Source: Deltaproteobacteria bacterium (GTDB lineage Bacteria; Desulfobacterota; Desulfobulbia; Desulfobulbales; BM004). From it: DNA of 47,029 nt. Below, in pieces: positions 4,732 to 26,982 of this stretch. How positions within the stretch are numbered: the stretch's first letter is position 1; every line of letters begins with the position of its first letter. A program made the position numbers and the translations under genes. Location: positions 1-47,029 of the forward strand of contig JAHEID010000001.1 in the NCBI GenBank assembly GCA_024639555.1, read 5' to 3'. The notes below the pieces were generated by a model. That model was not told the DNA's origin. It was given only the letters and a program-made list of their open reading frames with translations, and searched no databases.

Positions 4732-4736
4732 TTATT

Positions 4737-5594: not shown

Positions 5595-5598
5595 TTTT

Positions 5599-6552: not shown

Positions 6553-6562
6553 TTAGCCTGTT

Positions 6563-7942
6563 TTAGTCCTGCATCATTTCCAACAATTTTTCACCAGCCT
6601 GCCAGATGTTTCCGGCTCCCAGTGACAAGACCACGTCACCAGGGGCAAGAATGTCCATGGCCTTGTCAAGGAGCTCGGAAAAACTTGGTTCAAAATAAGC
6701 ATGTCTATGGCCATGCTGCTTTATGCCATTTAACAGTGCTTCTGCAGTCACACCGGGAATAGGGGATTCGCTGGCACTGTATATTTCGGTTAAAAGAAGG
6801 ATGTCAGCCTCATGAAAGGCTGTATAGAATTCTTCTGCCAAAGCTTTTGTCCTTGAATAACGATGTGGCTGAAACAGAACAACACGCCTGCGTTCAGGCC
6901 ACGCATCACGTAGGGCGGAGAGGGTTGCCCGTATTTCAGTAGGATGATGTCCATAATCATCAACAACTGTGATGTCTCTCCTTTCTCCTTTAATTTGCAA
7001 CCTTCGCTGCACCCCCGAAAAACTTTCTAAAGCAGCAGCAATAGTTGCAAACGGGATATCCAACTCCAACCCTACAGTGATTGTGGCTAAAGCATTGTAT
7101 ACATTGTGTACTCCGGCCAGGGAAAGATTGACTTCTCCAAGGACTTCATTTTCTACGCAGACTTCAAAGCGGGTGTTGAGCCCGGAGGTGTTAATTCCTT
7201 TGGCATAGACATTTGCCTGGCTGGTCAGGCCATAGGTCAGGAATCTTTTCTTGACCTCGGGCAGGATAGAGGCAACATGGGGATCGTCCAAGCAGAGTAT
7301 GACAGCGCCGTAAAAGGGGATTTTGTCGATAAAATCCAGAAAAACAGCTTTGATCTGTTCTATTGAACTGTAGTAATCCAGGTGCTCCTGGTCAATGTTG
7401 GTAACAATCTCAAGCACAGGGGCAAGCTTCAAAAAGGACCCGTCCGATTCATCCGCTTCTGCAACGAGAAAGTCTCCTCCTCCCAACTTGGCATTGATTC
7501 CACCCAGACAGTCGACTTTACCACCGATAACAACGGTCGGATCAAGCCCTGCCTCTGCAAGAAGCCAGGCCACCATGGATGCGGTTGTTGTTTTGCCGTG
7601 ACTTCCGGCAATGGCAATGCCGAACTTGGCGAGTCGCATCAGTTCTGCCAGCATCTCAGCCCTGGGAATGACGGGGATGAGAGAATTGACGGCAGCTTCG
7701 ACTTCCGGGTTGTCATCAGCAATGGCCGAGGAGATGACAACAACATCAGCTCCCCTTATCCAGTCGGCGTCATGGCCAATATGCAAGGTCCCGCCAAGGG
7801 ACTTCAGGCGGCGAGTTATGTCAGACTCATGCAGGTCTGATCCGCTGATCTTGTAGCCAAGATTCAGCAACAGTTCTGCAATGCCGCTCATGCCGATACC
7901 GCCTATGCCTACGAAGTGTATATGTTTGCTTTTCCTGTACAT
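6563..7942 (-). CDS. murC: UDP-N-acetylmuramate--L-alanine ligase MurC
   Basis: [18 protein letters not shown] Rossmann start and Mur ligase P-loop [11 protein letters not shown]. 459 aa. Confidence 0.95.
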
Positions 7943-7967
7943 TTCAAGGGTTCTTAATTTTATGCTT

Positions 7968-9119
7968 TTATAAGAAGGCTAAAGTTTTTCCAGTATTCTC
8001 TTGTAATTTGTCTTTCAAGAGTTCCATGCATATATTGACAATTGTTCCTGTGGCCTCTGGTTTGGCAACCTTTCCAGAGCTTGCTGACATTTCTGACAGA
8101 AGTTTTGTGTCAGCCAGAAGTCGTGTTATTTCCATGCCGAGTTTTTTCCCGTCCAGGTCAGATTGTCTGAACATGAGGCCACCACCTGCTTCGACAAGAT
8201 AGTGGCCGTTGATCTCCTGGTGATTATCTGCAGCAAAGGGAAACGGCACAAGAATTACAGGCTTGTGGAAGACTGTGAGTTCTGCAAGGGTGGTAGCTCC
8301 TGCCCGGGAAACAACAAGGTCGGCCTGGGAGTAGATCTCTGCCATATCACTGAAAAACGCTTGGACCCTGGCATTGATTCCAAGTTCAGCATATTTCCGC
8401 TTCACATGGATTTCGTCATGCTCACCCGTCTGGTGGATAATGTTGGGCATCGGTGTACGGTCAGCCAAAGAACTTTCAGCTGCTTCAAGCATAAGGCTAT
8501 TTAAGCGCTGTGCGCCTTGACTGCCACCCAAAATCAAGAGTGTCAAGGGTTCCTGGTATTTTTTCTGATCCATCTGATTTGCTGCCTTTATAATCGTGCT
8601 GCGCACCGGATTACCGCTTAATATAGTTTTGGAGTCTGAAAAATATTTTTCACTGCCGGGCAGGGAAACGAATATCCTGTCCGCAATATGGCCCAGCAGT
8701 CTGTTAGCCAGGCCAGGTATGGAATTCTGTTCATGGATGCAGGTTGTGATACCCAGCAGACGGGCCGCAAGAATTACCGGCCCAGTTACATAGCCACCCA
8801 CACCAAAAACAAGATCTGGTCTGAATTTTCGCATAATCCTGACTGCTTCGAAAAGCGCTTTCGGCTGTTGCAGCATGGCCCCTATTTTTGCAACCACGTT
8901 TTTACCTTTTATGCCCTGGCTTTTAATGGTCATGGTAGCAAAACCGAGGTCAGCCAGGGCGGTTTTATCAACCTTTCTCTCTGTGCCGATAAAAAGCACC
9001 TTGCAGCCGGGATAGGTCTGCATCATAGCCTGGGCCAGGGAGATCCCCGGAAAGAGATGGCCGCCGGTCCCGCCACCGGTAATGATAAGCCGCATGTAGT
9101 GTGCTTTTTCGTCTTCCAT
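7968..9119 (-). CDS. murG: Lipid II-forming GlcNAc transferase MurG
   Basis: [17 protein letters not shown] signature. The start is taken at ATG 9119 ([11 protein letters not shown]...), or alternatively 9095. The ORF-track extension to 9275 overlaps the murD 3' end and is not credible. Confidence 0.93.
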
Positions 9120-9120
9120 C

Positions 9121-10593
9121 TCACTGCACTGTCGTTTCTTTATTGATGCTGGCAGGATTTTCCCGCAGCCCAAGAACAGATTTCCTGAAAACATCACCGC
9201 GTTCAGCATAACTTGAAAACATGTCAAAGCTCGCGCAGGCTGGTGAGAGTAAAACAGCGTCACCGGGCGCAGCAAGACTTGCAGCTCTTAATACCGCTTC
9301 CTGGAGAGTGTCGAGCATCTCAACATTGGTAAATGCCAGAAAGGCGCGGGCCATTGTATCTTTTGCTTCGCCTATAAGCAGTATATGTTTTACTTTTTGC
9401 CGGACAGGCTCAACAAGGATTGAGTAATCTCCTCCCTTGTCCCTGCCGCCGGCAACAAGAATAATTGGTTGCTGCAGGGCTTCAAGAGCAGAGTAAACCG
9501 CCCCGACATTTGTAGCTTTTGAGTCATCGATATAGCTGACCCCACCAATTTCAGTTACCAGCGTCATGCGATGTTCAAGGGGTTCGAAGGAGGCAAGGCC
9601 TTTTTGAATAGCCTGCTGCGGACAGCCCATCAAGCGGGCACCAAGAATTGCTGCTGCTGCATTTTGCAGGTTGGGGGGATTTTTCAAACAGGTGACGGCT
9701 AAGTCATAGGACTCACCATGTATGTTGTTCGGAAGCGTTAATGAGCTGCTGTTTTTTAGATGAATTTTACTACCATGAATTGAAGCGCCGGCAAGATCAG
9801 CAAGATGTTTGCCGAAAAAGAACTTTTGGCATGCAGGCCAAAGATTTCTGCGGTTCATGATCTCAGCATCGTCAGCATTGAGTATTGCGTAATCATCAGG
9901 ACCCTGGGCAGCAAAAATTGTGAATTTGGAATCCACGTATGATGCAAAAGAGGTATATCGTTCCAGGTGATCCGGGGTGATATTCAGCAGGATGGCGGTT
10001 TTGAAAGGCAGGCTATTCTGGGAGCCGCCGGTGTCCAGTTGAAAGCTGCTGACCTCAGCCACTACTATATCAGCATCCTGAGCACCGGAAATATAATCAA
10101 AAAGCGGGGTGCCGATATTGCCGCCGACAAAAACTTTTCGGGAGGCGGCTTTGAAAATGTCCCCCAAGAGGGTGGCTACCGTGGTTTTGCCATTGGTACC
10201 TGTTACTGCAATTACAGGTGTCCGCATGAAATGTGCCGCTACTGCCAGCTCGCCAATGACGGGTATGTTGAGGCGTCTGGCTTCATTCAGAGGTTTAATG
10301 GTAAGAGGGATTCCCGGACTGACAAAAATAAGATCAGCTGAGGTGAAAAGGTCCATAGTGTGCCCATCTGTCTCACAGGCTATATTGTTCTCCCTGAGCC
10401 ATGCAATAAATTCAGGGGATATTGAGCTTTGGGGCGATGATTCTGACACAGAGACTCTGGCACCATGCTGCAGGAAAAACCTGACGGCAGCCTGGCCGGT
10501 TTTTCCCAGGCCAACGACAACAATATGTTGGCCATGCAGTTCAAAGATGGTGTCTGATTTTTTAAGCGTTTTTGTCATGTTAATTACAACCAT
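9121..10593 (-). CDS. murD: UDP-N-acetylmuramoylalanine--D-glutamate ligase MurD
   Basis: VVVGLGKTGQA Rossmann motif and Mur ligase P-loop [14 protein letters not shown]. An alternative ATG exists at 10578. The stop TGA at 9121-9123 lies 1 nt from the murG start. Confidence 0.93.
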   Translation of the reverse strand: MVVINMTKTLKKSDTIFELHGQHIVVVGLGKTGQAAVRFFLQHGARVSVSESSPQSSISPEFIAWLRENNIACETDGHTMDLFTSADLIFVSPGIPLTIKPLNEARRLNIPVIGELAVAAHFMRTPVIAVTGTNGKTTVATLLGDIFKAASRKVFVGGNIGTPLFDYISGAQDADIVVAEVSSFQLDTGGSQNSLPFKTAILLNITPDHLERYTSFASYVDSKFTIFAAQGPDDYAILNADDAEIMNRRNLWPACQKFFFGKHLADLAGASIHGSKIHLKNSSSLTLPNNIHGESYDLAVTCLKNPPNLQNAAAAILGARLMGCPQQAIQKGLASFEPLEHRMTLVTEIGGVSYIDDSKATNVGAVYSALEALQQPIILVAGGRDKGGDYSILVEPVRQKVKHILLIGEAKDTMARAFLAFTNVEMLDTLQEAVLRAASLAAPGDAVLLSPACASFDMFSSYAERGDVFRKSVLGLRENPASINKETTVQ

Positions 10594-10612
10594 TGCCGCA
10601 AAGATCTGAAAT

Positions 10613-11692
10613 TTACCTGAGTTTTAAAGTTGCAAGGGCCAGCAGAGCAAGAATGATGGAAATGATCCAGAAGCGCACCACAACCTTTGGTTCGGCCCAG
10701 CCCTTTTTTTCAAAATGATGGTGAAACGGGGCCATGAGGAATACCCGCTTTCCACCGGAAATCTTGAAAAAGCCCACTTGGATTATGACAGACAGGGCTT
10801 CCATAACAAAAATACCCCCGACAATCGCCAGCAAAATTTCCTGTTTCGTGATGATTGCTATGGTGCCCAGCGTTCCTCCCATGGCCAGTGAACCCACGTC
10901 ACCCATGAACATTTGGGCCGGATAGGCGTTGAACCAGAGAAAACCAAGGGCGCTACCCACGAGTGCACCGCAATAAACAGCAAGTTCCCCCGAACCCGGC
11001 ACAAAAGGTATCTGCAGGTAGTCTGCCAGGACTGCATGTCCGGCCAGGTAAGAAAATACAAGGTAAACTGAGCCGGTGATAATTATTGGTCCAGCAGCCA
11101 GGCCATCCAACCCGTCAGTGAGATTGACGGCATTGGAAGATCCGACAATTACGAACATGGCGAAAATGACATAAAACCAGCCAAGGTCCGGCTTGAGAGC
11201 TTTAAAGAAGGGAACACTCAGATGCCCGTCGAAATTAGGGTGACTGTAGAGAATAGCACCAATGAGCAGGGCGCCGACTACCTGCAGGAGTAGTTTACCC
11301 CGAGCACTCAACCCTTTGCTGTTGTTTATGGTGATTTTTCTAAAATCATCAATGGCGCCGATTAAACCGAACCACAGTGTAACCCCTAATATCACCCAGA
11401 CATAACGGTTGGTAAGGTTGGCCCAGAGCAGGGTGGTGTTGATAATGGTAAAGATGATAAGCATGCCGCCCATGGTGGGAATGCCTTCTTTCTGAAAGTG
11501 GGTTTCCGGGCCGTCGTTTCTGATCACCTGACCAATGTGCAGATTTCTGATGTAGCGGATAAAAGCCGGGGCAACTAAAACAAAGAAAAGAAATGCTGTT
11601 ACTGCGGCTCCAATGGTCCGAAAAGTGATGTAACGGAAAACATTGAAACCTGCAAATAGGGTGTTTAGTGGGTATAGGAGGTGGTATAGCAT
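10613..11692 (-). CDS. mraY: Phospho-N-acetylmuramoyl-pentapeptide transferase MraY
   Basis: Polytopic membrane protein with [13 protein letters not shown] and APFHHHFE motifs. Confidence 0.96.
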
Positions 11693-11697: not shown

Positions 11698-14600
11698 TTA
11701 GTTGCCCGCTGCTTTGAAAGTAGAGTTGTTGTTGCGCAGAAGTTCAAGGACTTCTTCCATGCGCATGCCTCGTGAGCCTTTAACAAGAAACCAATCACCG
11801 GACTCGATCTTGCCCTCCTGCACTAATTTCTGCAGCCAGAAGGCCAGATCTTTTTTGCTGCTGAATCCTTTGGCCGCAGCCGGGTCCATGCCGGCATTTC
11901 TTGCACTTATGACCATATTTTCTGCCTGGCTGCCGAAAGCGGCTAGAAAGTCGATGCCAAGCCTTTTCACTGTGCGGCCCAAAGCTGCGTGAGCATCATC
12001 AGTTTTAGTGCCTAACTCCAGCATGTCGCCCAGAACAGCCACAGTCCGGTGGGTTTTTTTCAGGTCCAACAGGGTGTTGAGGGCAGCCTGCATTGATGCG
12101 GGATTGGCATTATAACAGTCGTTAAGAACCCTTACGCCTGAAGGCAGTTCCTCAACGCGGGTCCGCTTGTCATAAGGTCTGAAAGCAGCAAGCCCACTGG
12201 TAATTTCATCGATGCCGATGCCGGCTCCATGGGCCATGGCAGCTGCAGCAAGACTGTTTGTCACATTGTGCTTACCCAGACCTTGAATTGTGACCTGTCG
12301 GGTTTCATTATCTATATGGAGGCTAAATTCCATACCGCTTTCACCCAGGCTTTTTATTTTTGTAGCGCGAACAAGTGCATCCGGATGGCAGCCAAAGGTG
12401 ATTTTCTCCTGTCCTAATGTTTCAGCCAGAGAACTGACAATCTCGTCATCCAGGTTGACAGCAACCTTGCCGTCTGGTTTGAGGCCTGCGAAAAGTTCGC
12501 TTTTGGCTCTTGCTACACCCCAGATATCGCCAAGACCTTCCAGGTGCGCCTCTTGAACGTTGATGATGCAGGCAACGTCCGGGTCTGCGATTTCGGTCAA
12601 AGTCGCAATCTCACCTTGCCTGTTCATGCCCATTTCCAACACAGCTATTTCGTGCTCCGGTTTTAGTCCCAAAAGGGTTAAGGGCAGACCGATCAGGTTG
12701 TTGAAATTGCCTTCGGTTTTTAAAATGGCATGACTTTGACTGAGAATAGCCCCGGCCATTTCTTTGACTGTGGTTTTACCGGAACTGCCGGTTATGGCAA
12801 GGACCCGCAAATTTTTATTCCAGCGGCGCAAACTGCCGGCGAGTTGACCGAGAGCAACAACGGTATCGGGCACCAGCAGGACAGGGACGGTCTGGTGAAA
12901 ATCCAGATCAGATTGCTTCCGGCCAGGGATGTGATTAATGAGAAGTCCGGTTGCTCCTTTTTGTATTGCTTTTCCGCTAAACCTTCTGCCATCAAAGTTT
13001 TCACCTTTCAGGGCAACAAAGAGATCGCCGGCTTGTATTGTCCGGGTATCGGTAGAAATGTTGTTGAAGGTTACAGATTTTTCAAGGGGAAAGAGAAGCT
13101 GTCCGCCGGTGATCTGTTGCACCCATTCAAGTTTCCAGGCTGGGGGTGAACCGGACTTTGCCTGCAGTTGCATTTCAGCCTCAACCCGATCATCGAAGAA
13201 AATTTTTCCTTTTCTGCTGATCTGGTAATTTTCATGCCCTTTGCCGCTGATAAGGATGACATCATCCGGATTTGCAAATCTGATAGCTGTACTGATTGCC
13301 ACGTGCCGGTTCACCAGGGTGTCATATCCTTTCCCCTCTTGCTCCATGAGAGTTTTTGGCCCTGAAACCTTTTTAAGCCCACCCCTGGAAAGTCCCTCTT
13401 CAATCTGTGCCAGTATCATATCGGGAGATTCAGAACGGGGATTGTCGGAGGTTGCCAGCACCACATCACATAGTTTGCCTGCAATTTCACCCATAAGAAC
13501 CCTTTTCCCGCGGTCACGGTCGCCGCCACAGCCAAAAACACAGACCAGCCGTATGGGTTTGAGTTTCCGCAGGGCAGTCAATACATTTTTAAGGGCATCC
13601 GGGGTATGGGCGTAATCCACAAAAACTGCAGGGCAGGGTGCGATTGTATTTTCCAGCCCAACCCTTTCGAGTCTGCCTGGAATAGTTTTTACATCTTCCA
13701 GACCATTTTTCATGCAGCCCGGCTTTTCACCATGAGCTACACCGATACCGATGGCGCAGAGTATATTTCGCAGGTTGAATTCCCCAACCAGAGGAGTTGT
13801 AAGTGACATGGTCCCGGTAGGAGTTGTGACTTCAGAAGTAATGCCGCTGATGTCTATGGTGAAATTTTGCGGGTGTATATCACAGTCGCTGCTCATGCCA
13901 CATGTTATCATTGGAGGAGAATCTTCTCTGGCCTGAAACAGAGACTTCAGCTCCTCGTGCATCTGTTTACTCCAGTTATTGTTTTCACAGGATGCAGTTC
14001 TGTCGTCCTTTGCCTGGCCTGCTGCAACTTCAAGTACGATGACGATCCGGCCCCCGGGCTTTAAATAATTGGTGAAAAGCAGTTTTTTGCTCGTGAAATA
14101 ATGATGCATGTCAGTGTGAAAATCCAGGTGGTCCCTGCTTAAATTGGTAAACACACCTATATCAAATTCCATTCCCGTAAGTCTTGACTGGGCCAGGGCA
14201 TGTGATGATACTTCCATTACCACATCCGTGATATCCTCGTCAGCCATTGTACGCAGCAATGCAAAGAGGGTAGGTGATTCCGGTGTTGTAAAAGGGGCCT
14301 CCATTTCAATGTGCTTGTTGTTTTTGTCGTTATAGCGATAATTGACGGTACCTATTACTCCTGGGCGCCTGCCGCAGGCCTTTAACAGGGACTCAACCAG
14401 AAAAGTTGTTGTTGTTTTGCCGTTGGTTCCTGTCACCCCGATCACAGTGAGTTGCCGGTCAGGATGATCATAGTAGTTTGCCGCCACATATCCCAGGGCA
14501 GTTTTAGTGTCAGGGACCTCCACTATTGCGACCCGGGGCCAATCCTGTGCGTCCGCTACATATTCCTGCCAACCTTGGTTTACCAACAGGGCGGAGCAAC

Positions 14601-14799
14601 CTGCAGCAACTGCCTGGTTCAGATAGTTGTGCCCATCAACAGAAAGACCTTTAAGGGCGGCAAACATGTTTCCAGCCTGCACCTTCCTGGAATCTGAACA
14701 GAGACCGGTAATTTCAGTTTTTTCTATCTCCCCGGTAATGTTGTATTCAACCCCTTCAAGTAAGAGTTCGAGTTGTTTTGCTGTTGTAATTGCCGACAT
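11698..14799 (-). CDS. murEF: Fused MurE (meso-DAP-adding) :: MurF (D-Ala-D-Ala-adding) Mur ligases
   Basis: A single uninterrupted 1033-aa ORF with two complete Mur-ligase units. The first P-loop is [14 protein letters not shown] and this unit carries the MurE-type DNPR motif (TSDNPRSE). The second P-loop is [13 protein letters not shown] with MurF-like ends. The junction is near aa 545-555 (about nt 13150). Confidence 0.9.
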
Positions 14800-14842
14800 T
14801 AATATGATCCAAAAAACAGGCTGTTATTTATCTTTGCGTTGC

Positions 14843-16861
14843 TCATATCTCCTGCTGCATTTTCAGAATACATTCAGTACCGTTTATAAGTTCGGTGCCG
14901 GCGGCAGGATGTTGTGAAATTATTCTGCCTTTGCCGACAAGCTTAATTACCAGGTTGTAATGCTGAAGCACCTGCAGACCTGCCCGCAGGCTTTTCCCGG
15001 TGACGTCGGGCATATTTTTTTTGCTCTCGGTCGTTGCAGTAAGATTCTTTTTTTCAGACGCAAGAGAATCACTGTTTTTCGGTGATGCAGTCCCGCCGTT
15101 GGTCCAGAAATCCGGAGAAGGCACAAGGTGGGCCTGATCTGTCACATAGAGCATTTTTTGAATCATATCTTTGTCCGGGCTCAGCACAGAGAATTTGTTT
15201 CCAAAGGTTTTCAGCGCATCCGGATAGGCCGTATCATAATTTTCCGGATAGGAAAGTTGGGCGATCATGGTCAGTCTGGGATCTCTGCCGGGAATGGCCC
15301 CCAGCATTATACTTTGCCTGATGCGGGGACTTTGTTCGATCAGCGCGACTGTATCAGGTTTCGCCTTTGCCTGTCCAGAATTCTCAGGGGTTGCAGCTAA
15401 CCGGTGGGCTTCAAAAAACATCGGTACTTGTGAGATTTTGCCTCTACTGTGGATTTTCAACCATTTGGCCGCAAGGAAATCTGTTAAGTCCTCGCTGGTG
15501 TCAGGATGCAGTGCAGCAGTTTGTACAGCTTCAGTCAGGGTTGATTCCACCGGTGTGGGTTTTTCCTTTGGGTACGCCTTGTTGAGCAGATGCGGGGAAA
15601 CGATCTTGCCATTATTCACAAGTGCCGTGAAACCGGTGAGAAGGCGTAGGGCGGAGGTGTGAAAAGCTGGATCGGTTAGGGCAAGAGATGAAGCAACGGT
15701 AGCCTCATCTTTGAGAGGTATATCTGTCAATGGTTCTTGGTTAAAACCCAAAAGTTGGGCAAAGTGGACAAGATACTCAGGATCAACATTGTCAACGGGT
15801 GGCGCAACGGATAATCCTTTTCTTTTAAGTATTTCCGGCTTAATGACGCGCAAAGGCTCTGTTTCATCCATGTTGCCAAGGGTTTGCGATTTTCTTTCAT
15901 TATTGAAATTTATTGCCGCAGCCTGCTGGAAAATTAGAGCAAGTTCGCCGGGATATAGTGGTTCGGTAACAACATTGTTATTGAGAGCAGAGCTGGAAAA
16001 CTCCCAATAACGATTGGGATTAAAAGTAGGATAACTGGCCATGGCAAGTATACCGCCGGTATTGGCATCCATGAGGAGAACAGCACCGCTTTCAGCCCCG
16101 GTAATCTTGACCCTTTTTTCCAGAAAGCGTTCAATTTTGGACTGAAGCATCAGGTCAAGGTTGAGCACCAGATGGGTACCGGTCCGGCTAAGTTCTGATG
16201 CAGAACTGAAGTGCAGGGCGACCAGTTCTGCACTGTTTATCTCATCTCCCCGCAGGAGCGTATTGTATTGGAATTCTATCCCGTCGAGCCCCTGATCATT
16301 CTCGACAAAGCCTACTGCATGCGCAGCTGTTTCATAATTGGGATAGAAGCGTTTTGTCTCAACAACCGGGTAAATGCCTTTTATATTGCGTTCTTTTATG
16401 TTATCTGCCAGGCGTTGATCAATTCCCTTGGCAATCCAGACAAATCCCCGTTCACTTTTTAAGTTTGCTGAAAGCTTGTTTTGCCCTAACCCCAGGATTT
16501 CTTCCAGCAGGATGGCAGAAGCAGCCGGGTCTTCCATTTCAAGGGGGCGGGCGTATATGGCATAGGTCTCATAGGTGGCTGCCAGGCGTCTGAAATTGCG
16601 ATCGTAAATGTCGCCTCTGGGTGAGGCTGCTTGAATCGATGCCAGGGCTTTGCCAGGCTTGTTTTGCTTGAGCCAGGTGAGGACTTCTGAGATGACATAA
16701 AGTTTCTCTTTATGAAACAAGAAGGCCCCGGATCCTAAAATCAGGATAAGGGCCAGAAGAAGAAACACCTTCTTCTTTTTTATATTTAAGAGCGACTTTC
16801 GTCGTCTCTGAAATTGTTTTTTAGCGTGATCAGTCATGTAGCATTCCAAACTCCCATGCAT
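14843..16861 (-). CDS. Class B penicillin-binding protein at the ftsI position, with apparently degenerate transpeptidase motifs and a C-terminal PASTA domain
   Basis: N-terminal TM segment, then bPBP pedestal motifs (RGDIYDRN, AAHAVGFVENDQGLDGIEFQYN, LLMDANTGGILAMASYPTFNPN). YPGELALI sits where the SxxK motif is expected, and GKIS where KTG is expected. The C-terminal segment MPDVTGKSLRAGLQVL...HPAAGTELINGTECIL is PASTA-like. An alternative ATG exists at 16837. Confidence 0.8.
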   Translation of the reverse strand: MHGSLECYMTDHAKKQFQRRRKSLLNIKKKKVFLLLALILILGSGAFLFHKEKLYVISEVLTWLKQNKPGKALASIQAASPRGDIYDRNFRRLAATYETYAIYARPLEMEDPAASAILLEEILGLGQNKLSANLKSERGFVWIAKGIDQRLADNIKERNIKGIYPVVETKRFYPNYETAAHAVGFVENDQGLDGIEFQYNTLLRGDEINSAELVALHFSSASELSRTGTHLVLNLDLMLQSKIERFLEKRVKITGAESGAVLLMDANTGGILAMASYPTFNPNRYWEFSSSALNNNVVTEPLYPGELALIFQQAAAINFNNERKSQTLGNMDETEPLRVIKPEILKRKGLSVAPPVDNVDPEYLVHFAQLLGFNQEPLTDIPLKDEATVASSLALTDPAFHTSALRLLTGFTALVNNGKIVSPHLLNKAYPKEKPTPVESTLTEAVQTAALHPDTSEDLTDFLAAKWLKIHSRGKISQVPMFFEAHRLAATPENSGQAKAKPDTVALIEQSPRIRQSIMLGAIPGRDPRLTMIAQLSYPENYDTAYPDALKTFGNKFSVLSPDKDMIQKMLYVTDQAHLVPSPDFWTNGGTASPKNSDSLASEKKNLTATTESKKNMPDVTGKSLRAGLQVLQHYNLVIKLVGKGRIISQHPAAGTELINGTECILKMQQEI

Positions 16862-16937: not shown

Positions 16938-17306
16938 TTATGGATAACGGATTTGGTTTGTCGCAGGGGACTGTAAACCAAGTTTTTGAGTTGCAGTCTC
17001 CATGTGGTTCTGGCTCAGCATCAGGTCACGTTGCACAATCAGCAGTCTCTTTTCTTTAAGCAATTGATTGTTGGTAGATCTGTTGTTGCCGATTTGATCC
17101 AGGGCAACTTGAACCTGCAGGCCGTACCAGATAGTTGAACTGATGCCGATTATGACGGTTAGCAGAAGCATGGCACCAAGAGTTTTCCACATAAGTTTGG
17201 ATGCATGAAAAAGATCAGTGGAGGCAGCGGAAGACTTTTTCCGCGAATTTTTTATTTTGTTCCTGCCGTTTGCCAAGATAAAACCGCCGGAATAATCCTT
17301 GATCAT
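16938..17306 (-). CDS. ftsL: FtsL-like cell division protein
   Basis: 122 aa with a basic N-terminus, one TM segment (LGAMLLLTVIIGISSTIWYGL) and a short coiled-coil-like tail. The canonical slot between rsmH and ftsI supports the call. Confidence 0.75.
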   Translation of the reverse strand: MIKDYSGGFILANGRNKIKNSRKKSSAASTDLFHASKLMWKTLGAMLLLTVIIGISSTIWYGLQVQVALDQIGNNRSTNNQLLKEKRLLIVQRDLMLSQNHMETATQKLGLQSPATNQIRYP

Positions 17307-17325: not shown

Positions 17326-18285
17326 TCAACCTTTCATATATGCTGCCCGAAGCTTTGCGCTTCTGGATCGTGGATTCATCCTGATCTCTTCTGCGCACGG
17401 AATTACAGGTTTTTTCGTTAATACATGCAGTTCAGGGTTGTCTTTGAATTTCCATTTTACCAACCTGTCTTCCAGGGAGTGGAAGGCAATGATGCATATC
17501 CTGCCGCCGGGTTTAAGAATTTTTGCTATGGTATCCAGTACAACAGTCAGGTTATCGAGTTCTTTATTAACGGCAATTCGCAGGGCTTGGAAAACCTTTG
17601 TTGCCGCATGAATTTTCCGGGGTTGAAATTTTCTTGGAACTGCACCGGTAACAATGCGGGCAAGATGCGAGGTCGTTGTTATCCTGTTTTGGGCCCTTTC
17701 AGCAACTATATGTGCAGCTATGCGCCGGGCCTGCCTTTCGTCACCGTAGTAATAAAAAATATCTGCAAGGTCTTCCCGGTCCAAATCGTTTATTATTTCT
17801 TCGGCGCTGGGGTGTGAACGCTTATCCATGCGCATATCGAGCGGTCCGTTCAACTGGTAGCTGAAACCTCTTTCTCCAGAGTCAAACTGTAATGAGGAAA
17901 CACCAAGATCCAATAATATTCCATCCACTTTGTGAATCCCCATTTCTGTTAGTCCAGCCATAATTTCAGCGTAGTTCCGATACTGAGCGTGAAATCTTTC
18001 CCCAAAAGGAGCGAGTCTTTTCCTGGCCAGTTCCAAGGCACTTGCATCACACTCAAAACCAATGACACGGCCTGAGGGCCCGCAAGACTGCAAAATTTTT
18101 TCAGTATGCCCACCAAGGCCAAGAGTGCCGTCAATATATATCCCTCCATCAACCGGTGCCAGGAAGCGGATTACTTCTTCGAGAAGAACAGGGGTGTGGA
18201 TTTTAGGGGAAGAATCCGGGTTTGAGGGTTGAACCATGGAGGAGCAAGGCTTTTTGGTATTAAGATTGTTCCTTGCATTCGTCAC
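17326..18285 (-). CDS. rsmH: 16S rRNA m4C1402 methyltransferase RsmH (MraW)
   Basis: HTPVLLEEV, DGTLGLGGH and DLGVSSLQFD motifs. A GTG start at 18285 is preceded by cgggga, and an alternative ATG exists at 18237. Confidence 0.93.
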   Translation of the reverse strand: MTNARNNLNTKKPCSSMVQPSNPDSSPKIHTPVLLEEVIRFLAPVDGGIYIDGTLGLGGHTEKILQSCGPSGRVIGFECDASALELARKRLAPFGERFHAQYRNYAEIMAGLTEMGIHKVDGILLDLGVSSLQFDSGERGFSYQLNGPLDMRMDKRSHPSAEEIINDLDREDLADIFYYYGDERQARRIAAHIVAERAQNRITTTSHLARIVTGAVPRKFQPRKIHAATKVFQALRIAVNKELDNLTVVLDTIAKILKPGGRICIIAFHSLEDRLVKWKFKDNPELHVLTKKPVIPCAEEIRMNPRSRSAKLRAAYMKG

Positions 18286-18296
18286 GGCATCCCCGA

Positions 18297-18776
18297 TTAA
18301 AGTATGCCCAGAGCGGATAAGCTTTGTTCGAAATCGCTGAATTTGTCTCTGGTCATCTTTCTTTCCTTTTCCCAGGCGCTTTTATCCCAGATTTCGAAGT
18401 GGTCGAGCATACCGTTCAGCACCACATCCTTTTTCAAGTCAAAATCCGTCCGCAGGGTAGGCGGCAGAAGGATTCTGCCTTGTTTGTCCAGAGTACATTC
18501 GCTCACACCGGAAATAACATAGCGCTTGAAAGAATCCATGCCGGGCTTTTTTTTCCCCTGCACAAGCAGTGTTGTTTCAATGCGTTCCCAGACTTTGACA
18601 GGAAAAGCTTTCAAGCACATGTGCCAGTTTGTGACCATCAACCGTTCATTCTTCTGGTCCTGGATCACATCACGAAACCTGCTTGGAATATTAAGCCTTC
18701 CCTTCACGTCCAGGGTGTGTTCCGAACGGCTGCGAAACCTGCTTTTTGATGCGTTGCTGCTGTCTGTTTTTGGCAC
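18297..18776 (-). CDS. mraZ: Transcriptional regulator MraZ
   Basis: Two SpoVT/AbrB-like halves (LDVKGRLNIPSRFR and LDKQGRILLPPTLR). It is the first gene of the dcw operon. GTG start, with a roughly 13-aa N-terminal extension relative to typical MraZ. Confidence 0.9.
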   Translation of the reverse strand: MPKTDSSNASKSRFRSRSEHTLDVKGRLNIPSRFRDVIQDQKNERLMVTNWHMCLKAFPVKVWERIETTLLVQGKKKPGMDSFKRYVISGVSECTLDKQGRILLPPTLRTDFDLKKDVVLNGMLDHFEIWDKSAWEKERKMTRDKFSDFEQSLSALGIL

Positions 18777-22303: not shown

Positions 22304-23659
22304 TTACTTGGCGGTATTCTGCCCGGAAAGCACATTCAGGCTTTTGAGAACAAGCAGAGCGGTGTTAAGCTGGTAGTCGTTCTTAAGCTTTTCTTTTGTT
22401 TCCTCTTCAATTGTAACCTTATCTGAAATCAAGTTGCTTTCATCGATGGTCGGAGGCTGAGGTTTCTCATCTGCAGGTTGCAAATTGCCACCATTTTCAA
22501 GGTGATATCTCAAATCCTTTTCCCTGAAAAATTCCACGGGTCCTTCTGGGGTGTCTTCTTCAGCAGCAGCAATTTTAGGAACAAGAACATCGGGGGTAAT
22601 CCCGGTTGCCTGGATGGAGGTCCCGTTTGGCGTGAAATACCGGGCAGTAGTGAGTCGCAGCCCGGCACCGTCGGCCATGGGGATGATGGTCTGCACAGAG
22701 CCCTTACCAAAGGACTGGGTGCCGAGAATAAGACCTCTTTTATGATCCTGCAGGGCTCCGGCAACGATCTCAGATGCAGAGGCAGTGCCGCCGTTTATCA
22801 AAATGACTATGGGGAAATCGTATTCCGGTCCGCCGCTGTGCGCTGAAAATTCCATATTCTGGTCTTGAAGACGGCCCTTGGTGGAAACGATAATACCTTC
22901 ATCCAGAAAAATGTCCGCGATCTTTACAGACGAATCTAGAAGCCCACCCGGATTATTTCGCAGGTCAAGAATCACCCCTTTAAGAGTTCCTTCTTTAGCC
23001 AGGTCTTCAAGGCCATTTTGTAGATCCCGTGAGGTATTTCTCTGGAAGTTGGTGATCCTGATATATCCGTATCCGGTTTCAAGGACACTGGAGCGTACAG
23101 AGTGAATCGGTATCACGTCCCTGATAATGGTAAACTCCTGCAGGTCTGTCCAGCCTTCGCGAAGAATTGAAATGGTGACCTCCGAACCTTTTTGTCCACG
23201 AAGTGTTTTTACCGCTTCGACCAATGACATGTCCTTGGTGGATACGCCCTCAATCTTAATGATCCTGTCTCCTGCCTGTATGCCTGCCTTGAAGGCAGGA
23301 GTGTCCTCAATGGGCGAGACAACGGTAAGCATGGTGTCCTTGAGGGTGATTTCAATGCCAATGCCGCTGAAAGCGCCCGTGGTTTCGACCTGGAGCTCCT
23401 TGAAGTCATCCGGTTTCAAAAAGGAGGAATGGGGATCCAGGCTGGTGAGCATCCCTTTAATTGCTCCCTCAATGGTTTCCTGCGTGTCAATGTCATCGAC
23501 ATAATTCTGTTGGACGATGCTGAGGACATTTGCGAAGACCTCGAGACTTTTATAGGTTTCCTGAGTATCATCAGATGATTCCAGGGCCTGAAGGCTACTG
23601 GCAAAGAAGAGAGGGAGAATAAGCAGCGTAATGTGGAGAACTTTTTTAAACGTAGTCAT
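22304..23659 (-). CDS. ctpA: Carboxy-terminal processing (S41, tail-specific) protease
   Basis: Signal peptide, PDZ region (GIGIEITL...AGIQAGDRIIKIEG), and S41 core NGGTASASEIVAGALQD...SFGKGSVQ. Confidence 0.92.
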   Translation of the reverse strand: MTTFKKVLHITLLILPLFFASSLQALESSDDTQETYKSLEVFANVLSIVQQNYVDDIDTQETIEGAIKGMLTSLDPHSSFLKPDDFKELQVETTGAFSGIGIEITLKDTMLTVVSPIEDTPAFKAGIQAGDRIIKIEGVSTKDMSLVEAVKTLRGQKGSEVTISILREGWTDLQEFTIIRDVIPIHSVRSSVLETGYGYIRITNFQRNTSRDLQNGLEDLAKEGTLKGVILDLRNNPGGLLDSSVKIADIFLDEGIIVSTKGRLQDQNMEFSAHSGGPEYDFPIVILINGGTASASEIVAGALQDHKRGLILGTQSFGKGSVQTIIPMADGAGLRLTTARYFTPNGTSIQATGITPDVLVPKIAAAEEDTPEGPVEFFREKDLRYHLENGGNLQPADEKPQPPTIDESNLISDKVTIEEETKEKLKNDYQLNTALLVLKSLNVLSGQNTAK

Positions 23660-23914
23660 AATGTTCCTGTCTGTATGGGCCTTTAATTGCTTGGAATATG
23701 AGGAGTTTCTCGGCCAAAAAGAAATTTGTTCGATTTTGCAACTACACGAAGTGTTCTGTATAAAATAATTAAGTTATCATGCTGTGCCACATCAAACAAT
23801 ATAATATCAAGCTGATGAAAGTCCAACAGCGAATAGTGCAGAATATAAATTTTTACCGCTTTGCTGACCTCTTGCCCGCAATATCATGGGGCTGTATCGG
23901 GGATGAGCAAGAAT

Positions 23915-23951
23915 AAAAAAACAGGCAATAATATGGTAATGGGATTGCCTT
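23915..23951 (-). terminator. Possible intrinsic terminator after the ftsEX-envC-like operon
   Basis: On the minus strand there is a 7-bp stem AGGCAAT/ATTGCCT with a 14-nt loop, followed by G and a T7 run, about 30 nt downstream of the stop at 23983. The loop is rather large. Confidence 0.45.
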
Positions 23952-23982
23952 GCAAGTCGAGTTATATTTCCTAAATATTCTA

Positions 23983-25377
23983 TCAGGGAAGTAATTGGAC
24001 CTCCCGGGTTGGAGTTTCAAGCGGAAGGGCGTCATTTTTAAGCCACAAAATGGGGTCTTCAGGGGTTGAGCCTTTGCGTATTTCAAAGTGAAGACCTTTG
24101 CCGTACAAAGGATCTCCTTCACCGGTCATGCCGATAATCTCTCCGGTTGCGACCTTTTCGCCTTCCTTTTTGTAAAAGTCAGCTGCCCTGGAAATGAGGG
24201 AGAAGTACTGTTGCCCATGGTCAATAATAAGGAGGTTTCCATAGCCTCGCAGGTAGCCTGAATGTATAATCTTGCCATCGTAGACAGCCTTGATTTCTTG
24301 GCCTTTTTTTACCCTGATATCTATTCCGTCTGCTATGGTGTATGAATCAAACTTACCCGGGACCTTTTGTCTGAAATTAGTGATAACAGAACCCGGGACA
24401 GGGGGATCGAGTAATCCTTTCCGGCCTGGAAAGCCTTCTTGGACAGCGGCTGCTTTTTGAGACAGTTTTTTCTTTTCTGTATCAATCAGGCGCACAGGTC
24501 TTGGCGCAGCAGGCTGTGGTTGGGATGCTGTCTGCAGCCTTTGCAGGGTTTCAGCCAGATCAGTAGCAGCTTCTTCAATTTCCAAAACAGCTTGTTCATA
24601 GAGATGCTGTTCTGTGTTTACCTGTTTAAGCAGGTAGCTTTTTTCTTCCCGGATCCGGGTAAACTGTAATTCATTTTCGCTTACTTCATTCGCCAGCTTC
24701 ATGAGCCGCAACTTTTCCCGGGCATGTTCCTCCCTGGCAATGTTCGACTCCTTGAGCTGGCCGAGATATTCCTGGATGATGGCATGGTCATGCTGCACCA
24801 TGAGGCTGAAATATTCCTTGAAATCAAGGAGTTCCGGCAGTGATTCTGAAGCAAATACGACATTCATCAGCCCGACTGAACCCATGCGGTAATAGGATGC
24901 CAGCCTGTTTTTTACATGCACCTGATGCGCCCTTTTTTCAGCAAGGACCTGTTTTAAGTACTCCTGTTTGCCAGATAGCAGTAATTCCTGCTTCTCGGTT
25001 TCTGCCCGCAGGGTGACAAGCATACTTTTCTGTGCCTCGAGTTCCCTTTCAATTTTTTCAAGTTCTCCGAGAAGGGTTCTTTCCTTCTTTCTGGAATCGA
25101 GGATTTTTATTTTATGATCAATTATGCCTTCCTGCAGTTTCCGGATAGTGGCATTTTTTTCTATTATTTCCTGTTGTTGCTTTTTTGTGAGTTTATTGCG
25201 GTAAGATTCTTGCGGATTGTCCGGGAAATTTGCTTCCTGGGCATAAGCTTTATGGCTGCTTCCAGCTCCTCCAGGAAAACTAATGGGAATAAGAGAGCAG
25301 GCAGTTATTAGTGAGAAAAACAGGACGCGTGCCGGCTTTATTGGATTTCTCTTCAAGGTGTCGCGCAGGATTTTCAT
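23983..25377 (-). CDS. EnvC-like coiled-coil protein with degenerate LytM (M23) domain
   Basis: Signal peptide, long coiled-coil region, and a C-terminal M23 fold (GIDIRVKKGQEIKAVYDGKII...GYGNLLIIDHG...GLHFEIR). Its start ATG overlaps the ftsX stop region. Confidence 0.85.
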   Translation of the reverse strand: MKILRDTLKRNPIKPARVLFFSLITACSLIPISFPGGAGSSHKAYAQEANFPDNPQESYRNKLTKKQQQEIIEKNATIRKLQEGIIDHKIKILDSRKKERTLLGELEKIERELEAQKSMLVTLRAETEKQELLLSGKQEYLKQVLAEKRAHQVHVKNRLASYYRMGSVGLMNVVFASESLPELLDFKEYFSLMVQHDHAIIQEYLGQLKESNIAREEHAREKLRLMKLANEVSENELQFTRIREEKSYLLKQVNTEQHLYEQAVLEIEEAATDLAETLQRLQTASQPQPAAPRPVRLIDTEKKKLSQKAAAVQEGFPGRKGLLDPPVPGSVITNFRQKVPGKFDSYTIADGIDIRVKKGQEIKAVYDGKIIHSGYLRGYGNLLIIDHGQQYFSLISRAADFYKKEGEKVATGEIIGMTGEGDPLYGKGLHFEIRKGSTPEDPILWLKNDALPLETPTREVQLLP

Positions 25378-25378
25378 G

Positions 25379-26266: not shown

Positions 26267-26982
26267 GGCATATTATTAGACGTGGAGGTAGTCATGTCTT
26301 CCTGCGCTAAAAAGCGGCCGCTGTGCAACTCGAGTACACGATAATCTGTCTCCCTGTAAATATCTTCGTCGTGTGTGGCAATAATAACGGTTGTGCCAGA
26401 ACTATTGCAGTCCTCAAACAGTTTCATGACAAGTTTTGTAGTTTTGGAATCCAGGTTGCCGGTTGGTTCGTCAGCCAGAATAAGTGTTGGCGAGTTGGCT
26501 ACTGCACGGGCAATGGCAACACGCTGCTGTTCGCCACGCGACAGTCTTCCGGCCAGAGCATCATACTTATGCTCAAGTCTGAGTTTCTGCAGCAGTTCGA
26601 TGACCCTGTTCTTTATGGCCCTGATGTTGTGGTAGGCGACCTCCATGGCCATGGAAATATTTTGGGCCACGGTCCTGTCGGCCAGAAGCTTGAAATCCTG
26701 GTAGGCCATACCGATCTGCTGCCGCAGCCTTGGTATTTCGTTCGCTTTTATGCGGTTCATATCCTTGCCTGCCACCTCAACCAACCCCTTGTCAGGATAT
26801 TCAATGCCGCATATCAGTTTCAACAGTGTTGTCTTGCCGGCCCCACTCATGCCAGTCAGAAAAAGCATCTCGCCATATGGAATGGACAATGTAATATCCT
26901 CGAGTGCCACGACATCGGGAGGATAAATTTTAGTAGCCCTGACAATCTCGATTATAGGTTTGTTGGCTTGTTTTTTTTTCAT
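26263..26982 (-). CDS. ftsE: Cell division ABC ATPase FtsE
   Basis: Walker [16 protein letters not shown] signature [14 protein letters not shown], and Walker [12 protein letters not shown]. Confidence 0.93.

What the first reader, a model, noticed from the sequence alone, without database searches (positions are those of the whole stretch)
14843..16861. The ftsI-position class B PBP seems to have lost SxxK, SxN and KTG yet keeps its pedestal and carries a PASTA domain
This 672-aa ORF sits exactly where ftsI belongs, between ftsL and murE. Its N-terminal half aligns well by eye to bPBP pedestal domains. E. coli FtsI carries the acylation motif in ...FEPGS307TVK310P..., but this protein reads LYPGELALI. 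I verified those codons on the sequence at 15935-15955, so Glu replaces the Ser nucleophile and Leu replaces the Lys. I could not find an SxN motif in the following roughly 60 residues. The KTG position reads GKIS (about 15430-15442). In-frame remnants of the domain persist (TSALRLLTGFTALVNNGKIVSPHLL; GAIPGRDPRLTMIAQL), so this is divergence rather than a frameshift or pseudogene. The C-terminal roughly 50 aa (about 14858-15013) look like one PASTA domain. All precursor-synthesis genes around it look intact. A catalytically dead, PASTA-bearing bPBP at the core of a functional dcw operon would point to a scaffold, regulatory or muropeptide-sensing role. Septal cross-linking would then be supplied from elsewhere in the genome.
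Basis: partly seen in the sequence, partly recalled or inferred. Interest (0 to 1): 0.7.

Follow-up and report, generated by a model that had tools for sequence, protein, structure and literature searches.

The report
Catalytically dead FtsI, no ftsW
The cell-division transpeptidase gene ftsI of this sulfate-reducer relative encodes an intact, selected protein with no catalytic residues, and across the order Desulfobulbales this goes with loss of ftsW from the division gene cluster, so the septal wall is probably built without the supposedly universal FtsW-FtsI enzyme pair.

Summary
The ORF at 14843-16861(-), whose real start is probably 16837 (664 aa), is a full-length class B PBP: TM anchor, pedestal, transpeptidase-like fold and one PASTA domain. 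Profile, profile-profile and structure-based alignments agree on the active site. Glu and Leu replace the SxxK Ser and Lys. The SxN segment is deleted. The beta3 strand has no K[TS]G.

This is neither an error nor a pseudogene. The same state occurs in every homologue within three deep clades plus a small intermediate group. Source names on a minority of these proteins and loci place them in Desulfobulbales, including the cultured Desulfofustis glycolicus. All 150 best 50%-identity cluster representatives lack the motifs. dN/dS is about 0.2. On pedestal and PASTA columns the dead proteins form one clade (98.5% bootstrap).

It is absent in all 10 dead loci and present in 45 of 45 canonical loci.

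The pedestal and PASTA domains keep invariant residues, while the transpeptidase-like domain keeps almost none.

Best reading: a non-catalytic pseudo-FtsI kept as a divisome subunit, with septal peptidoglycan made by other synthases. I could not test which synthases. This is a new natural variant of a known kind.

The parts
14843..16837 (-). pseudo-ftsI coding sequence (664 aa plus stop). The mechanical ORF runs on to an upstream ATG at 16861.
   Evidence: all homologues begin MTDHA.
16658..16837 (-). Basic cytoplasmic tail and single TM helix (aa 1-60; VFLLLALILILGSGAFLF).
   Evidence: Sequence. AlphaFold2 models one long helix at 3-41.
16118..16657 (-). Pedestal (non-penicillin-binding) domain, aa 61-240. 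It contains RGDIYDRNF, RFYPN and GLDGIEFQYNTLLRG.
   Evidence: Pfam PF03717, E 8e-13. Sixteen residues are invariant across all dead clades. Motifs read.
15083..16117 (-). Transpeptidase-like domain without catalytic motifs, aa 241-585.
   Evidence: HHalign probability 100% over 582 columns. Foldseek matches to PBP3, SpoVD and PBP2x at E about 1e-31. pLDDT is mostly above 85 in the core. Only 3 residues are invariant across the dead clades.
15935..15946 (-). ELAL at the SxxK position. Glu298 replaces the Ser nucleophile and Leu301 replaces the Lys.
   Evidence: The helix at 297-321 starts here.
15398..15421 (-). MFFEAHRL, the strand equivalent to beta3, with no K[TS]G.
14846..15013 (-). Single PASTA domain (aa 609-664), the most conserved domain in the dead clade.
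   Evidence: Pfam PF03793, 32.6 bits. Mean pairwise identity is 0.74 against 0.655 for the pedestal and 0.555 for the TP-like domain.
16938..17306 (-). 122-aa bitopic ORF at the ftsL position.
   Evidence: Position and topology only. It has no family hit of its own. Positional equivalents hit FtsL models weakly, E 0.004.
17326..18776 (-). rsmH (17326-18285) and mraZ (18297-18776), the head of the dcw operon.
11698..14799 (-). Fused murE-murF (1033 aa).
   Evidence: Pfam shows two sets of Mur ligase domains.
9121..11692 (-). mraY (10613-11692) and murD (9121-10593).
9093..9123 (-). murD stop codon directly abutting the murG start. ftsW normally lies here, but there is no room for a gene.
2198..9119 (-). 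murG, murC, murB, ftsQ, ftsA and ftsZ, all intact.
22304..26982 (-). ftsE, ftsX, an M23 (EnvC-like) peptidase and an S41 Ctp peptidase. The septal hydrolysis control module is intact.
   Evidence: The same synteny is seen in L083.

Best explanation
The gene encodes a pseudo-FtsI. It descends from the dcw-encoded division transpeptidase and can no longer be acylated or cross-link peptidoglycan. It is kept as a non-catalytic divisome subunit.

Shown:
- All three catalytic motifs are gone, yet the bPBP fold, TM anchor, pedestal and PASTA domain remain.
- The protein is under purifying selection.
- This state is shared by one large monophyletic group. The organism names available for a minority of its members are all Desulfobulbales or broader labels compatible with that order.
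- The state coincides exactly with absence of ftsW from the dcw cluster.

Inferred:
- The TM helix and pedestal still dock into the divisome. This is probably through the FtsL-like and FtsQ proteins encoded beside it, and possibly onto a SEDS polymerase or a class A PBP.
- The PASTA domain holds or positions the complex on septal peptidoglycan or its precursor.
- The degenerate transpeptidase-like domain serves mainly as a folded spacer.
- Septal glycan polymerisation and cross-linking come from other synthases encoded elsewhere, such as RodA-PBP2, class A PBPs or L,D-transpeptidases.
For: - **Catalytic loss.** Searches show it by sequence and profile. Searches show Glu298 at the N-terminus of the active-site helix, a beta3-equivalent strand without K[TS]G, and a whole-fold match to PBP3, SpoVD and PBP2x at E about 1e-31.
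- **The residue at the Ser position is not conserved between dead clades.** It is E in clade 1, mostly E/K/Q/G/T in clade 2 and P/S/V in clade 3. A new catalytic residue there is therefore unlikely.
- **Not an artefact.** The motifs are absent in 95 + 120 + about 75 clusters at 90% identity. They are also absent in 150 of 150 best 50%-identity representatives.
- **Selection.** dN/dS is 0.16-0.19 for the pedestal, 0.23-0.24 for the TP-like domain and 0.16-0.27 for PASTA.
- **The conservation pattern is inverted.** In the dead clade identity is PASTA 0.74 > pedestal 0.655 > TP 0.555. In canonical relatives it is TP 0.653 > pedestal 0.603 > PASTA 0.58. Across all dead clades the invariant residues number 16 in the pedestal, 9 in PASTA and 3 in the 345-residue TP-like domain.
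- **Single origin.** The dead sequences are monophyletic in 98.5% of 200 bootstrap replicates on pedestal and PASTA columns.
- **Coupling to ftsW.** No FtsW ORF lies between murD and murG in the window or in 9 other dead loci. An FtsW ORF is present in 45 of 45 canonical loci where both flanking genes are in view.
- **Literature.** ftsW is reported absent from four Desulfobulbaceae genomes, while PBP2 and RodA are present (PMC7873302). B. subtilis PBP2B has a structural role independent of catalysis (PMC5656894). S. aureus PBP1 PASTA domains bind peptidoglycan and are essential apart from transpeptidase activity (PMC9426605).
Against: - An ftsW or a second division-type bPBP elsewhere in this genome is not excluded. 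Bacilli, for example, keep ftsW outside the dcw cluster (PMC10693644).
- The interaction partners are inferred from synteny only.
- The FtsL assignment of the neighbouring ORF is weak.
- The TP-like domain is still under clear purifying selection within clades (dN/dS about 0.24). Helix alpha2 (YPGELALIFQQAA) is nearly invariant in clade 1. A clade-specific binding function of the old cleft therefore cannot be excluded.
- The coupling with ftsW loss is in effect one evolutionary event, so it is a correlation with n = 1.
Confidence: 0.62

Rival explanations
1. The protein is a non-catalytic activator of a SEDS polymerase that is still present. [quoted passage not shown] Pseudo-FtsI passes on the FtsQLB activation signal, and another PBP cross-links in trans. 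This would be the natural counterpart of B. subtilis PBP2B(S309A) with PBP3. It is a specific sub-case of the best explanation rather than a contradiction of it.
For: The pedestal and TM region are retained and constrained. All three pedestal motifs are intact. The precedent is PMC5656894. RodA and PBP2 are reported in related genomes (PMC7873302).
Against: No SEDS gene lies in the 47-kb window or in any of the dead loci. ftsW is reported absent genome-wide in four relatives. No test of pseudo-FtsI pairing with RodA is available.
Confidence: 0.3
2. The protein is still an enzyme with a relocated or different nucleophile. It might still process peptidoglycan stem peptides or bind beta-lactam-like ligands using residues outside the classical motifs.
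For: Within clade 1 the old active-site helix is almost invariant, and the Glu at the Ser position is conserved. The TP-like fold is kept.
Against: Across the three dead clades nothing in the cleft is conserved. The Ser-position residue varies freely. The SxN segment is deleted and the beta3 strand has no shared motif. Only 3 residues are invariant in the 345 residues of the domain, and all 3 lie before the cleft.
Confidence: 0.05
3. The gene is a decaying relic or an assembly artefact. On this view it is on its way to loss and has no function, or the substitutions are errors in a metagenome-assembled genome.
For: The TP-like domain evolves faster than the pedestal. Pfam barely recognises it.
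Against: The reading frame is intact and of conserved length (about 600-690 aa) in hundreds of independent assemblies. These include an isolate genome (GCA_900130015.1) and a 5.1-Mb contig. dN/dS is 0.14-0.25. The lineage is deep enough to span at least 150 clusters at 50% identity. Synteny is conserved.
Confidence: 0.03

Closest known systems
FtsI / PBP3 of E. coli and P. aeruginosa (class B3 PBP, the dcw-encoded septal DD-transpeptidase that pairs with FtsW)
   Same: Same gene position, after rsmH and ftsL and before murE. Same architecture of TM anchor, pedestal and transpeptidase fold. It is the best sequence and structure match. Canonical FtsI-PASTA proteins of Geobacter-type relatives align along the full length.
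   Different: There is no SxxK, SxN or KTG. No ftsW lies between murD and murG. The TP domain is the least conserved part rather than the most conserved.
B. subtilis PBP2B(S309A) supported by PBP3 (Sassine et al. 2017, PMC5656894)
   Same: A division bPBP whose catalysis is dispensable but whose presence is structurally required. Cross-linking is supplied in trans.
   Different: That is an engineered point mutant in a monoderm that keeps FtsW. Here the inactivation is natural and ancient, removes all motifs, and comes with loss of ftsW from the cluster.
Clostridioides difficile divisome without a canonical FtsW-FtsI pair, where the class A PBP1 builds the septum (Shrestha et al. 2023, PMC10693644; PMC12539705)
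   Same: A lineage in which the supposedly universal FtsW-FtsI septal synthase is not used for vegetative division.
   Different: In C. difficile the dcw-encoded pair (SpoVE/SpoVD) is catalytically intact and repurposed for sporulation. Here the SEDS gene is gone and the bPBP remains as a dead protein, in a non-sporulating diderm order.
S. aureus PBP1 and S. pneumoniae PBP2x (division bPBPs with C-terminal PASTA domains; Wacnik et al. 2022, PMC9426605)
   Same: Pedestal-TP-PASTA architecture. The PASTA domains have a non-enzymatic role that is essential and involves binding peptidoglycan.
   Different: Those proteins have two PASTA domains and an active transpeptidase site. This one has a single PASTA domain and no active site.
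'Pedestal but no canonical TPase domain' proteins counted in a domain-architecture survey (PMC12516126)
   Same: bPBP-like proteins in which domain searches find the pedestal but not PF00905. Clades 2 and 3 here would be scored that way.
   Different: In its main text that survey lists no Desulfobacterota or Thermodesulfobacteriota among the phyla carrying such proteins. There it also does not analyse motifs, selection or the link to ftsW. Its supplementary tables were not available. Here the TP fold is still present but degenerate.

Membership tests
Class B PBP / FtsI orthologue | N-terminal membrane anchor followed by a pedestal (PBP_dimer, PF03717) domain carrying the three conserved non-penicillin-binding-module motifs (RGxxxDRxG, RxYPxG, GxxGxE; recalled from Goffin & Ghuysen 1998) | tested here: met
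   PF03717 at E 8e-13, 49.6 bits against a cut-off of 24.4. RGDIYDRNF, RFYPN and GLDGIEFQ are read from the sequence and are invariant across dead and live proteins.
Class B PBP / FtsI orthologue | dcw position between ftsL and murE | tested here: met
   Order is mraZ-rsmH-(ftsL-like)-X-murEF-mraY-murD... in the window and in every related locus.
Class B PBP / FtsI orthologue | Penicilloyl-serine transferase fold | tested here: met
   HHalign probability 100% with 582 aligned columns. AlphaFold2 pLDDT 77 and pTM 0.70. Foldseek PDB matches of about 550 columns to PBP3, SpoVD and PBP2x at E 1e-31.
Class B PBP / FtsI orthologue | SxxK with the nucleophilic Ser at the N-terminus of helix alpha2 | tested here: not met
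   ELAL at that position. No dead-family member has SxxK at the aligned position. None of the 150 representatives has PGSxxK there.
Class B PBP / FtsI orthologue | SxN motif | tested here: not met
   The segment is deleted in the profile-profile alignment. No SxN at the aligned columns.
Class B PBP / FtsI orthologue | K[TS]G on strand beta3 | tested here: not met
   The beta3 equivalent is MFFEAHRL. No K[TS]G at the aligned position in any clade.
Class B PBP / FtsI orthologue | Cognate SEDS glycosyltransferase FtsW | tested here: not met
   There is no FtsW ORF or remnant in the window or in 11 related loci. Genome-wide absence could not be tested for this organism. It is reported for four relatives (PMC7873302).
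Class B PBP / FtsI orthologue | Covalent binding of beta-lactams and DD-transpeptidase activity | not testable with these tools
   Needs Bocillin-FL labelling or an in vitro cross-linking assay.
PASTA-domain proteins (PF03793) | Match to the PASTA profile above the curated threshold | tested here: met
   32.6 bits against a cut-off of 23.2, aa 617-663 of the 672-aa ORF. The alpha/beta element is modelled at pLDDT about 85.
PASTA-domain proteins (PF03793) | Binding of peptidoglycan, muropeptide or lipid II | not testable with these tools
   Only inferred, from the domain's high conservation and from the precedent of S. aureus PBP1.
Pseudoenzyme (a dead homologue retained for a non-catalytic role) | Catalytic residues lost while the fold is retained | tested here: met
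Pseudoenzyme (a dead homologue retained for a non-catalytic role) | Long-term purifying selection after inactivation | tested here: met
   dN/dS 0.14-0.25. Monophyletic dead clade spanning at least 150 clusters at 50% identity.
Pseudoenzyme (a dead homologue retained for a non-catalytic role) | A demonstrated non-catalytic function | not testable with these tools
   Needs localisation, depletion and interaction experiments.
Pseudogene | Frameshifts, premature stops or neutral evolution | tested here: not met
   The ORF is intact with conserved length and start. dN/dS is well below 1.

The most novel reading that the evidence does not exclude
An entire order of free-living diderm bacteria, Desulfobulbales, has dismantled the FtsW-FtsI septal synthase. 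The order includes the Desulfocapsa and Desulfofustis lineages and probably Desulfobulbus and the cable bacteria. FtsW was lost, and FtsI was converted once, in the common ancestor, into a pedestal-plus-PASTA adaptor. That adaptor now couples the FtsQLB-type activation signal to a different synthase, either the sole SEDS RodA or a class A PBP. This would be a natural system in which the allosteric and scaffolding function of a bPBP is fully separated from catalysis.
Probability: 0.4. Interest if true: 0.82.

Novelty: new variant of a known kind. Interest (0 to 1): 0.68.

Why it matters
FtsW-FtsI is treated as the universal, essential engine of septal peptidoglycan synthesis and is a major beta-lactam target. 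The known exceptions are wall-less or FtsZ-less lineages and, since 2023, some Clostridia.

A large, old, free-living diderm lineage that keeps FtsZ, FtsA, FtsQ, an FtsL-like protein, FtsEX and all lipid II enzymes, but has no ftsW in its dcw cluster and only a dead FtsI, would be a second and mechanistically different exception.

It also offers a natural separation of function. Evolution has kept the pedestal and PASTA domains and discarded the active site. This points to which parts of a division bPBP carry its non-enzymatic role.

The finding bears on how cable bacteria and their relatives build septa. It predicts insensitivity of their division to FtsI-specific beta-lactams. It also warns that annotations such as 'FtsI' or 'penicillin-binding protein 3' in these genomes should not be read as enzymes.

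Tried and rejected
- **Looking up the window's own protein in the contig index.** It is not on record.
- **The genome-contig scan.** Only a few Desulfobulbales loci came back and the window's own assembly was not among them. I compensated with two more protein searches and contig look-ups.
- **Organism names for clusters.** These were mostly unavailable. I could therefore not check directly that Desulfobulbus propionicus or Electrothrix FtsI are dead. That extension is an inference from the phylogenetic breadth and from PMC7873302.
- **A whole-genome inventory of SEDS proteins, bPBPs, aPBPs and LDTs.** This is impossible with flanks of at most 10 kb.
- **Supplementary tables of the survey paper.** Not held.
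- **FtsL assignment of the neighbouring ORF.** No hit in PDB and no family hit for the window protein. There were only weak FtsL hits for positional equivalents.
- **Rfam and tRNA scans of the window.** Nothing found.
- **Pseudogene or assembly error.** Considered and rejected.
- **A paralogue that displaced the real ftsI.** Rejected on synteny and the tree.
- **A shifted SxxK or KTG missed by the alignment.** Regex over whole proteins finds only scattered, non-homologous matches.
- **A new nucleophile at the Ser position.** Rejected because that residue is not conserved between clades.
- **PASTA as a new acquisition.** Rejected because it is present in canonical relatives.
Full report
**1. 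What is in the sequence**

The ORF at 14843..16861 on the minus strand is real and uninterrupted, at 672 aa. The database copy of the protein and every homologue begin at MTDHA. The start is therefore most likely the ATG at 16837, giving 664 aa. I use the 664-aa numbering below.

Pfam finds a pedestal domain (PBP_dimer, E 8e-13) and one C-terminal PASTA domain (32.6 bits against a cut-off of 23.2). The Transpeptidase model matches only its first 43 of 299 positions. NCBIfam models for FtsI, PBP2/PenA, MrdA and SpoVD all match only up to about residue 300-328, at scores five- to ten-fold below their cut-offs. phmmer against the PDB behaves the same way. It aligns YPGELALIF to EPGSTVKPF of P. 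aeruginosa PBP3.

**2. Are the catalytic motifs really absent?**

Canonical relatives recovered in the same search (27% identity, also PASTA-bearing) have S291xxK, S345SN and K491TG. A profile-profile alignment of 44 dead-clade sequences against 20 canonical ones gives probability 100% over 582 columns. In that alignment:
- Glu298 falls on the Ser and Leu301 on the Lys.
- The SxN motif falls in a deletion of about 12 residues in the dead clade.
- GKTGT aligns to a stretch with no such motif.

An AlphaFold2 model built on a 97-sequence alignment has mean pLDDT 77.4 and pTM 0.70. It has a helix at 297-321 that begins at Gly297/Glu298. Strand 473-480 (MFFEAHRL) is followed by strands 506-515 and 522-529, which is the beta3-beta4-beta5 sheet. 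Confidence is low just before the position of the missing SxN segment (322-340) and after beta3 (485-502).

Foldseek matches the model over about 550 columns to SpoVD, PBP3, PBP2x and S. aureus PBP1 at E about 1e-31. The fold is therefore kept and the active site is gone.

The structural equivalent lies just downstream, at 15398-15421. The conclusion is unaffected.

**3. It is a family, not an accident**

The first search returned 95 clusters (at 90% identity) that are 45-100% identical to the window protein. All read YPGELALIFQQAA or a near variant and lack SxN and KTG. The next hits were a small 30% group (HPGALGSLFQ) and then canonical FtsI at 27%.

Other Desulfobulbales loci from the genome scan are also dead. 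These carry the record titles 'Desulfocapsa sp.' and 'Desulfobulbaceae bacterium' SB20 and Madre3, and their sequences are quite different, for example IPEEIRKFFRDA and LPDELKIYFRDL. Searches seeded with two of them gave two more large clades. All 120 listed hits of the first and about 75 of the second lack the motifs. There is a sharp score gap before the canonical proteins.

Organism names are attached to only a minority of these proteins and loci. The named members include:
- the cultured Desulfofustis glycolicus (GCA_900130015.1)
- Candidatus Desulfatifera sulfidica
- Desulfocapsa MAGs
- 'Desulfobacterales bacterium SG8_35'

All names that specify a family or genus lie within Desulfobulbales. 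The remaining labels are broader ('Thermodesulfobacteriota', 'Deltaproteobacteria', 'Proteobacteria').

A profile of all the dead clades was searched against 1.84 billion 50%-identity representatives. All 150 best hits lack PGSxxK and GK[TS]G[TS] at the proper place. The three regex matches lie at unrelated positions.

A neighbour-joining tree on pedestal and PASTA columns only (283 columns, 53 sequences) recovers all dead proteins as one clade in 98.5% of 200 bootstrap replicates. One ancestral inactivation is the parsimonious reading. Long-branch effects remain a caveat.

**4. Selection**

Nei-Gojobori estimates compare the window with relatives of 84%, 70% and 65% protein identity:

| Domain | dN/dS |
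|---|---|
| Pedestal | 0.16-0.19 |
| TP-like | 0.23-0.24 |
| PASTA | 0.16-0.27 |

The protein is under purifying selection throughout.

The pattern of constraint is inverted relative to active enzymes (mean pairwise identity):

| Group | PASTA | Pedestal | TP domain |
|---|---|---|---|
| Dead clade | 0.74 | 0.655 | 0.555 |
| Canonical relatives | 0.58 | 0.603 | 0.653 |

Across all dead clades together, 16 residues are invariant in the 180-residue pedestal and 9 in the 56-residue PASTA domain. Only 3 are invariant in the 345-residue TP-like domain (G261, P270, P296), and all 3 lie ahead of the former cleft. The residue at the Ser position varies freely between clades. This argues against a relocated chemistry.

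**5. Context: ftsW is missing**

All genes of the window's dcw cluster lie on the minus strand. In transcription order they are:
- mraZ, rsmH and a 122-aa bitopic ORF at the ftsL position
- pseudo-ftsI
- a fused murE-murF
- mraY, murD, murG, murC and murB
- ftsQ, ftsA and ftsZ

The murD stop codon (9121-9123) directly abuts the murG start. ftsW normally lies there.

I classified 83 related loci by motif state and gene order. In 45 of 45 loci with canonical SxxK, SxN and KTG where both murD and murG are in view, an FtsW-like ORF lies between or beside them. Three of these ORFs were confirmed as PF01098 at E below 1e-110. All dead loci with both genes in view lack it. These are L003, L005, L014, L067 and L083, then L084, L086, L087 and L088, plus the window, which makes ten.

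tblastn with three FtsW queries finds no remnant in the window or in 11 dead loci. The same queries detect FtsW at 38-68% identity in control loci from other phyla.

Because the dead proteins form one clade, this is effectively a single evolutionary coincidence. It is nevertheless a complete one.

Independently, Geerlings et al. reported that ftsW, zipA and ftsN are absent from two Electrothrix and two Desulfobulbus genomes, while mreBCD, PBP2 and RodA are present. They assumed that FtsI is active (PMC7873302).

The window also carries intact ftsE, ftsX, an M23 EnvC-like peptidase and a Ctp peptidase just upstream. The same synteny is seen on an 869-kb contig of a relative.

**6. How it most likely works**

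Shown:
- a bitopic membrane protein with the whole bPBP fold and no catalytic residues
- kept under selection for a long time
- constraint concentrated in the pedestal and PASTA domains
- a lineage whose dcw cluster has no SEDS partner

Inferred: it persists as a non-catalytic divisome subunit.

In studied systems the TM helix and pedestal of bPBPs bind the SEDS polymerase and the FtsQLB complex. This is established knowledge of FtsWI and RodA-PBP2 and was not tested here. A catalytically dead PBP2B still supports B. subtilis division because it has a structural role (PMC5656894). The PASTA domains of S. aureus PBP1 bind peptidoglycan and are essential separately from transpeptidase activity (PMC9426605).

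I therefore propose the following:
- Pseudo-FtsI docks through its pedestal to the FtsL-like/FtsQ module.
- It anchors or senses septal peptidoglycan through the PASTA domain.
- It recruits or activates another synthase, either RodA-PBP2 or a class A PBP. C. difficile, which uses an aPBP for septation, is a precedent (PMC10693644).
- The degenerate TP-like domain acts mostly as a folded spacer.

I could not test which synthase is used.

**7. Comparison with what is known, and novelty**

By descent the protein belongs to the FtsI/bPBP family. Position, pedestal motifs and fold were all tested and met. It fails every catalytic criterion of that family and lacks the cognate FtsW. It should be called a pseudo-FtsI, not a penicillin-binding protein.

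Engineered dead division bPBPs and a Clostridial lineage without FtsW-FtsI are known. A domain-architecture survey counted 'pedestal without TPase' proteins in other phyla without analysing them (PMC12516126).

I found no paper in the searchable library that describes a naturally inactivated, conserved FtsI coupled to ftsW loss in Desulfobulbales. Public annotations call these proteins 'FtsI', 'penicillin-binding transpeptidase domain-containing protein' or 'PASTA domain-containing protein'.

I rate it a new variant of a known kind, of clear interest to the cell-division field.

**8. Limits**

- There is no whole-genome inventory for this organism.
- Organism names were available for only a minority of clusters, so the order-wide reach and the extension to Desulfobulbus and cable bacteria are inferred.
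- The FtsL assignment is weak.
- The tree is a simple distance tree.

Noticed in passing
window 11698-14799 (-): murE and murF are fused into one 1033-aa protein. The fusion is shared by most dead-FtsI loci (L001, L003, L014, L067, L083, L084, L086, L087). The genes are split in L005 and in all Geobacter-type loci. MurE-MurF chimeras are a known type (PMC10214165).
   Followed up: partly
window 9093-9123 and the whole dcw cluster 2198-18776: There is no ftsW and no ddl in the cluster. The murD stop codon abuts the murG start. tblastn finds no FtsW remnant anywhere in the 47 kb.
   Followed up: yes
window 22304-26982 (-): ftsE, ftsX, an M23 (EnvC-like) peptidase and an S41 C-terminal processing peptidase sit together upstream of the dcw cluster. 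An era-like GTPase gene and an RNase II gene lie between them and the cluster. The same arrangement occurs in L083.
   Followed up: partly
window 16938-17306 (-): A 122-aa ORF at the ftsL position, with one TM segment followed by a probable coiled coil, has no Pfam, NCBIfam or PDB hit of its own. Positional equivalents in Desulfofustis loci hit FtsL models only at E 0.004-0.15. A paper reports ftsL as apparently absent from many Desulfobulbaceae, which may simply reflect this divergence.
   Followed up: partly
window 77-1843 (-) and 43853-46459 (+): Two radical SAM proteins with the Radical_SAM_N2 N-terminal domain lie at the two ends of the window. The second is 868 aa and has a C-terminal DUF2344.
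   Followed up: no
window 27909-28332: This is a divergent intergenic region. All genes to the left, starting with a ParA/MinD-like ATPase gene, are on the minus strand. The genes to the right, starting with ileS, are on the plus strand. GC skew becomes clearly positive to the right.
   Followed up: no
window 42936-43838 (+) and 35771-36463 (-): A 300-aa ORF and a 230-aa ORF have no Pfam hit. The 230-aa ORF overlaps trmD on the opposite strand and is probably not a gene.
   Followed up: no
L080 (Gammaproteobacteria MAG, canonical FtsI): My BLAST classification found murD but neither ftsW nor murG in 9.6 kb downstream of a canonical ftsI. This may be divergence or a rearranged cluster.
   Followed up: no
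L005 and P0096/P0097: An intermediate dead group (YPGGLNRLFQLA / HPGALGSLFQ, 30% identical to the window protein) has separate murE and murF and also lacks ftsW. Many of the more distant 50%-identity representatives resemble this group. The dead family may therefore extend beyond the three named clades.
   Followed up: partly
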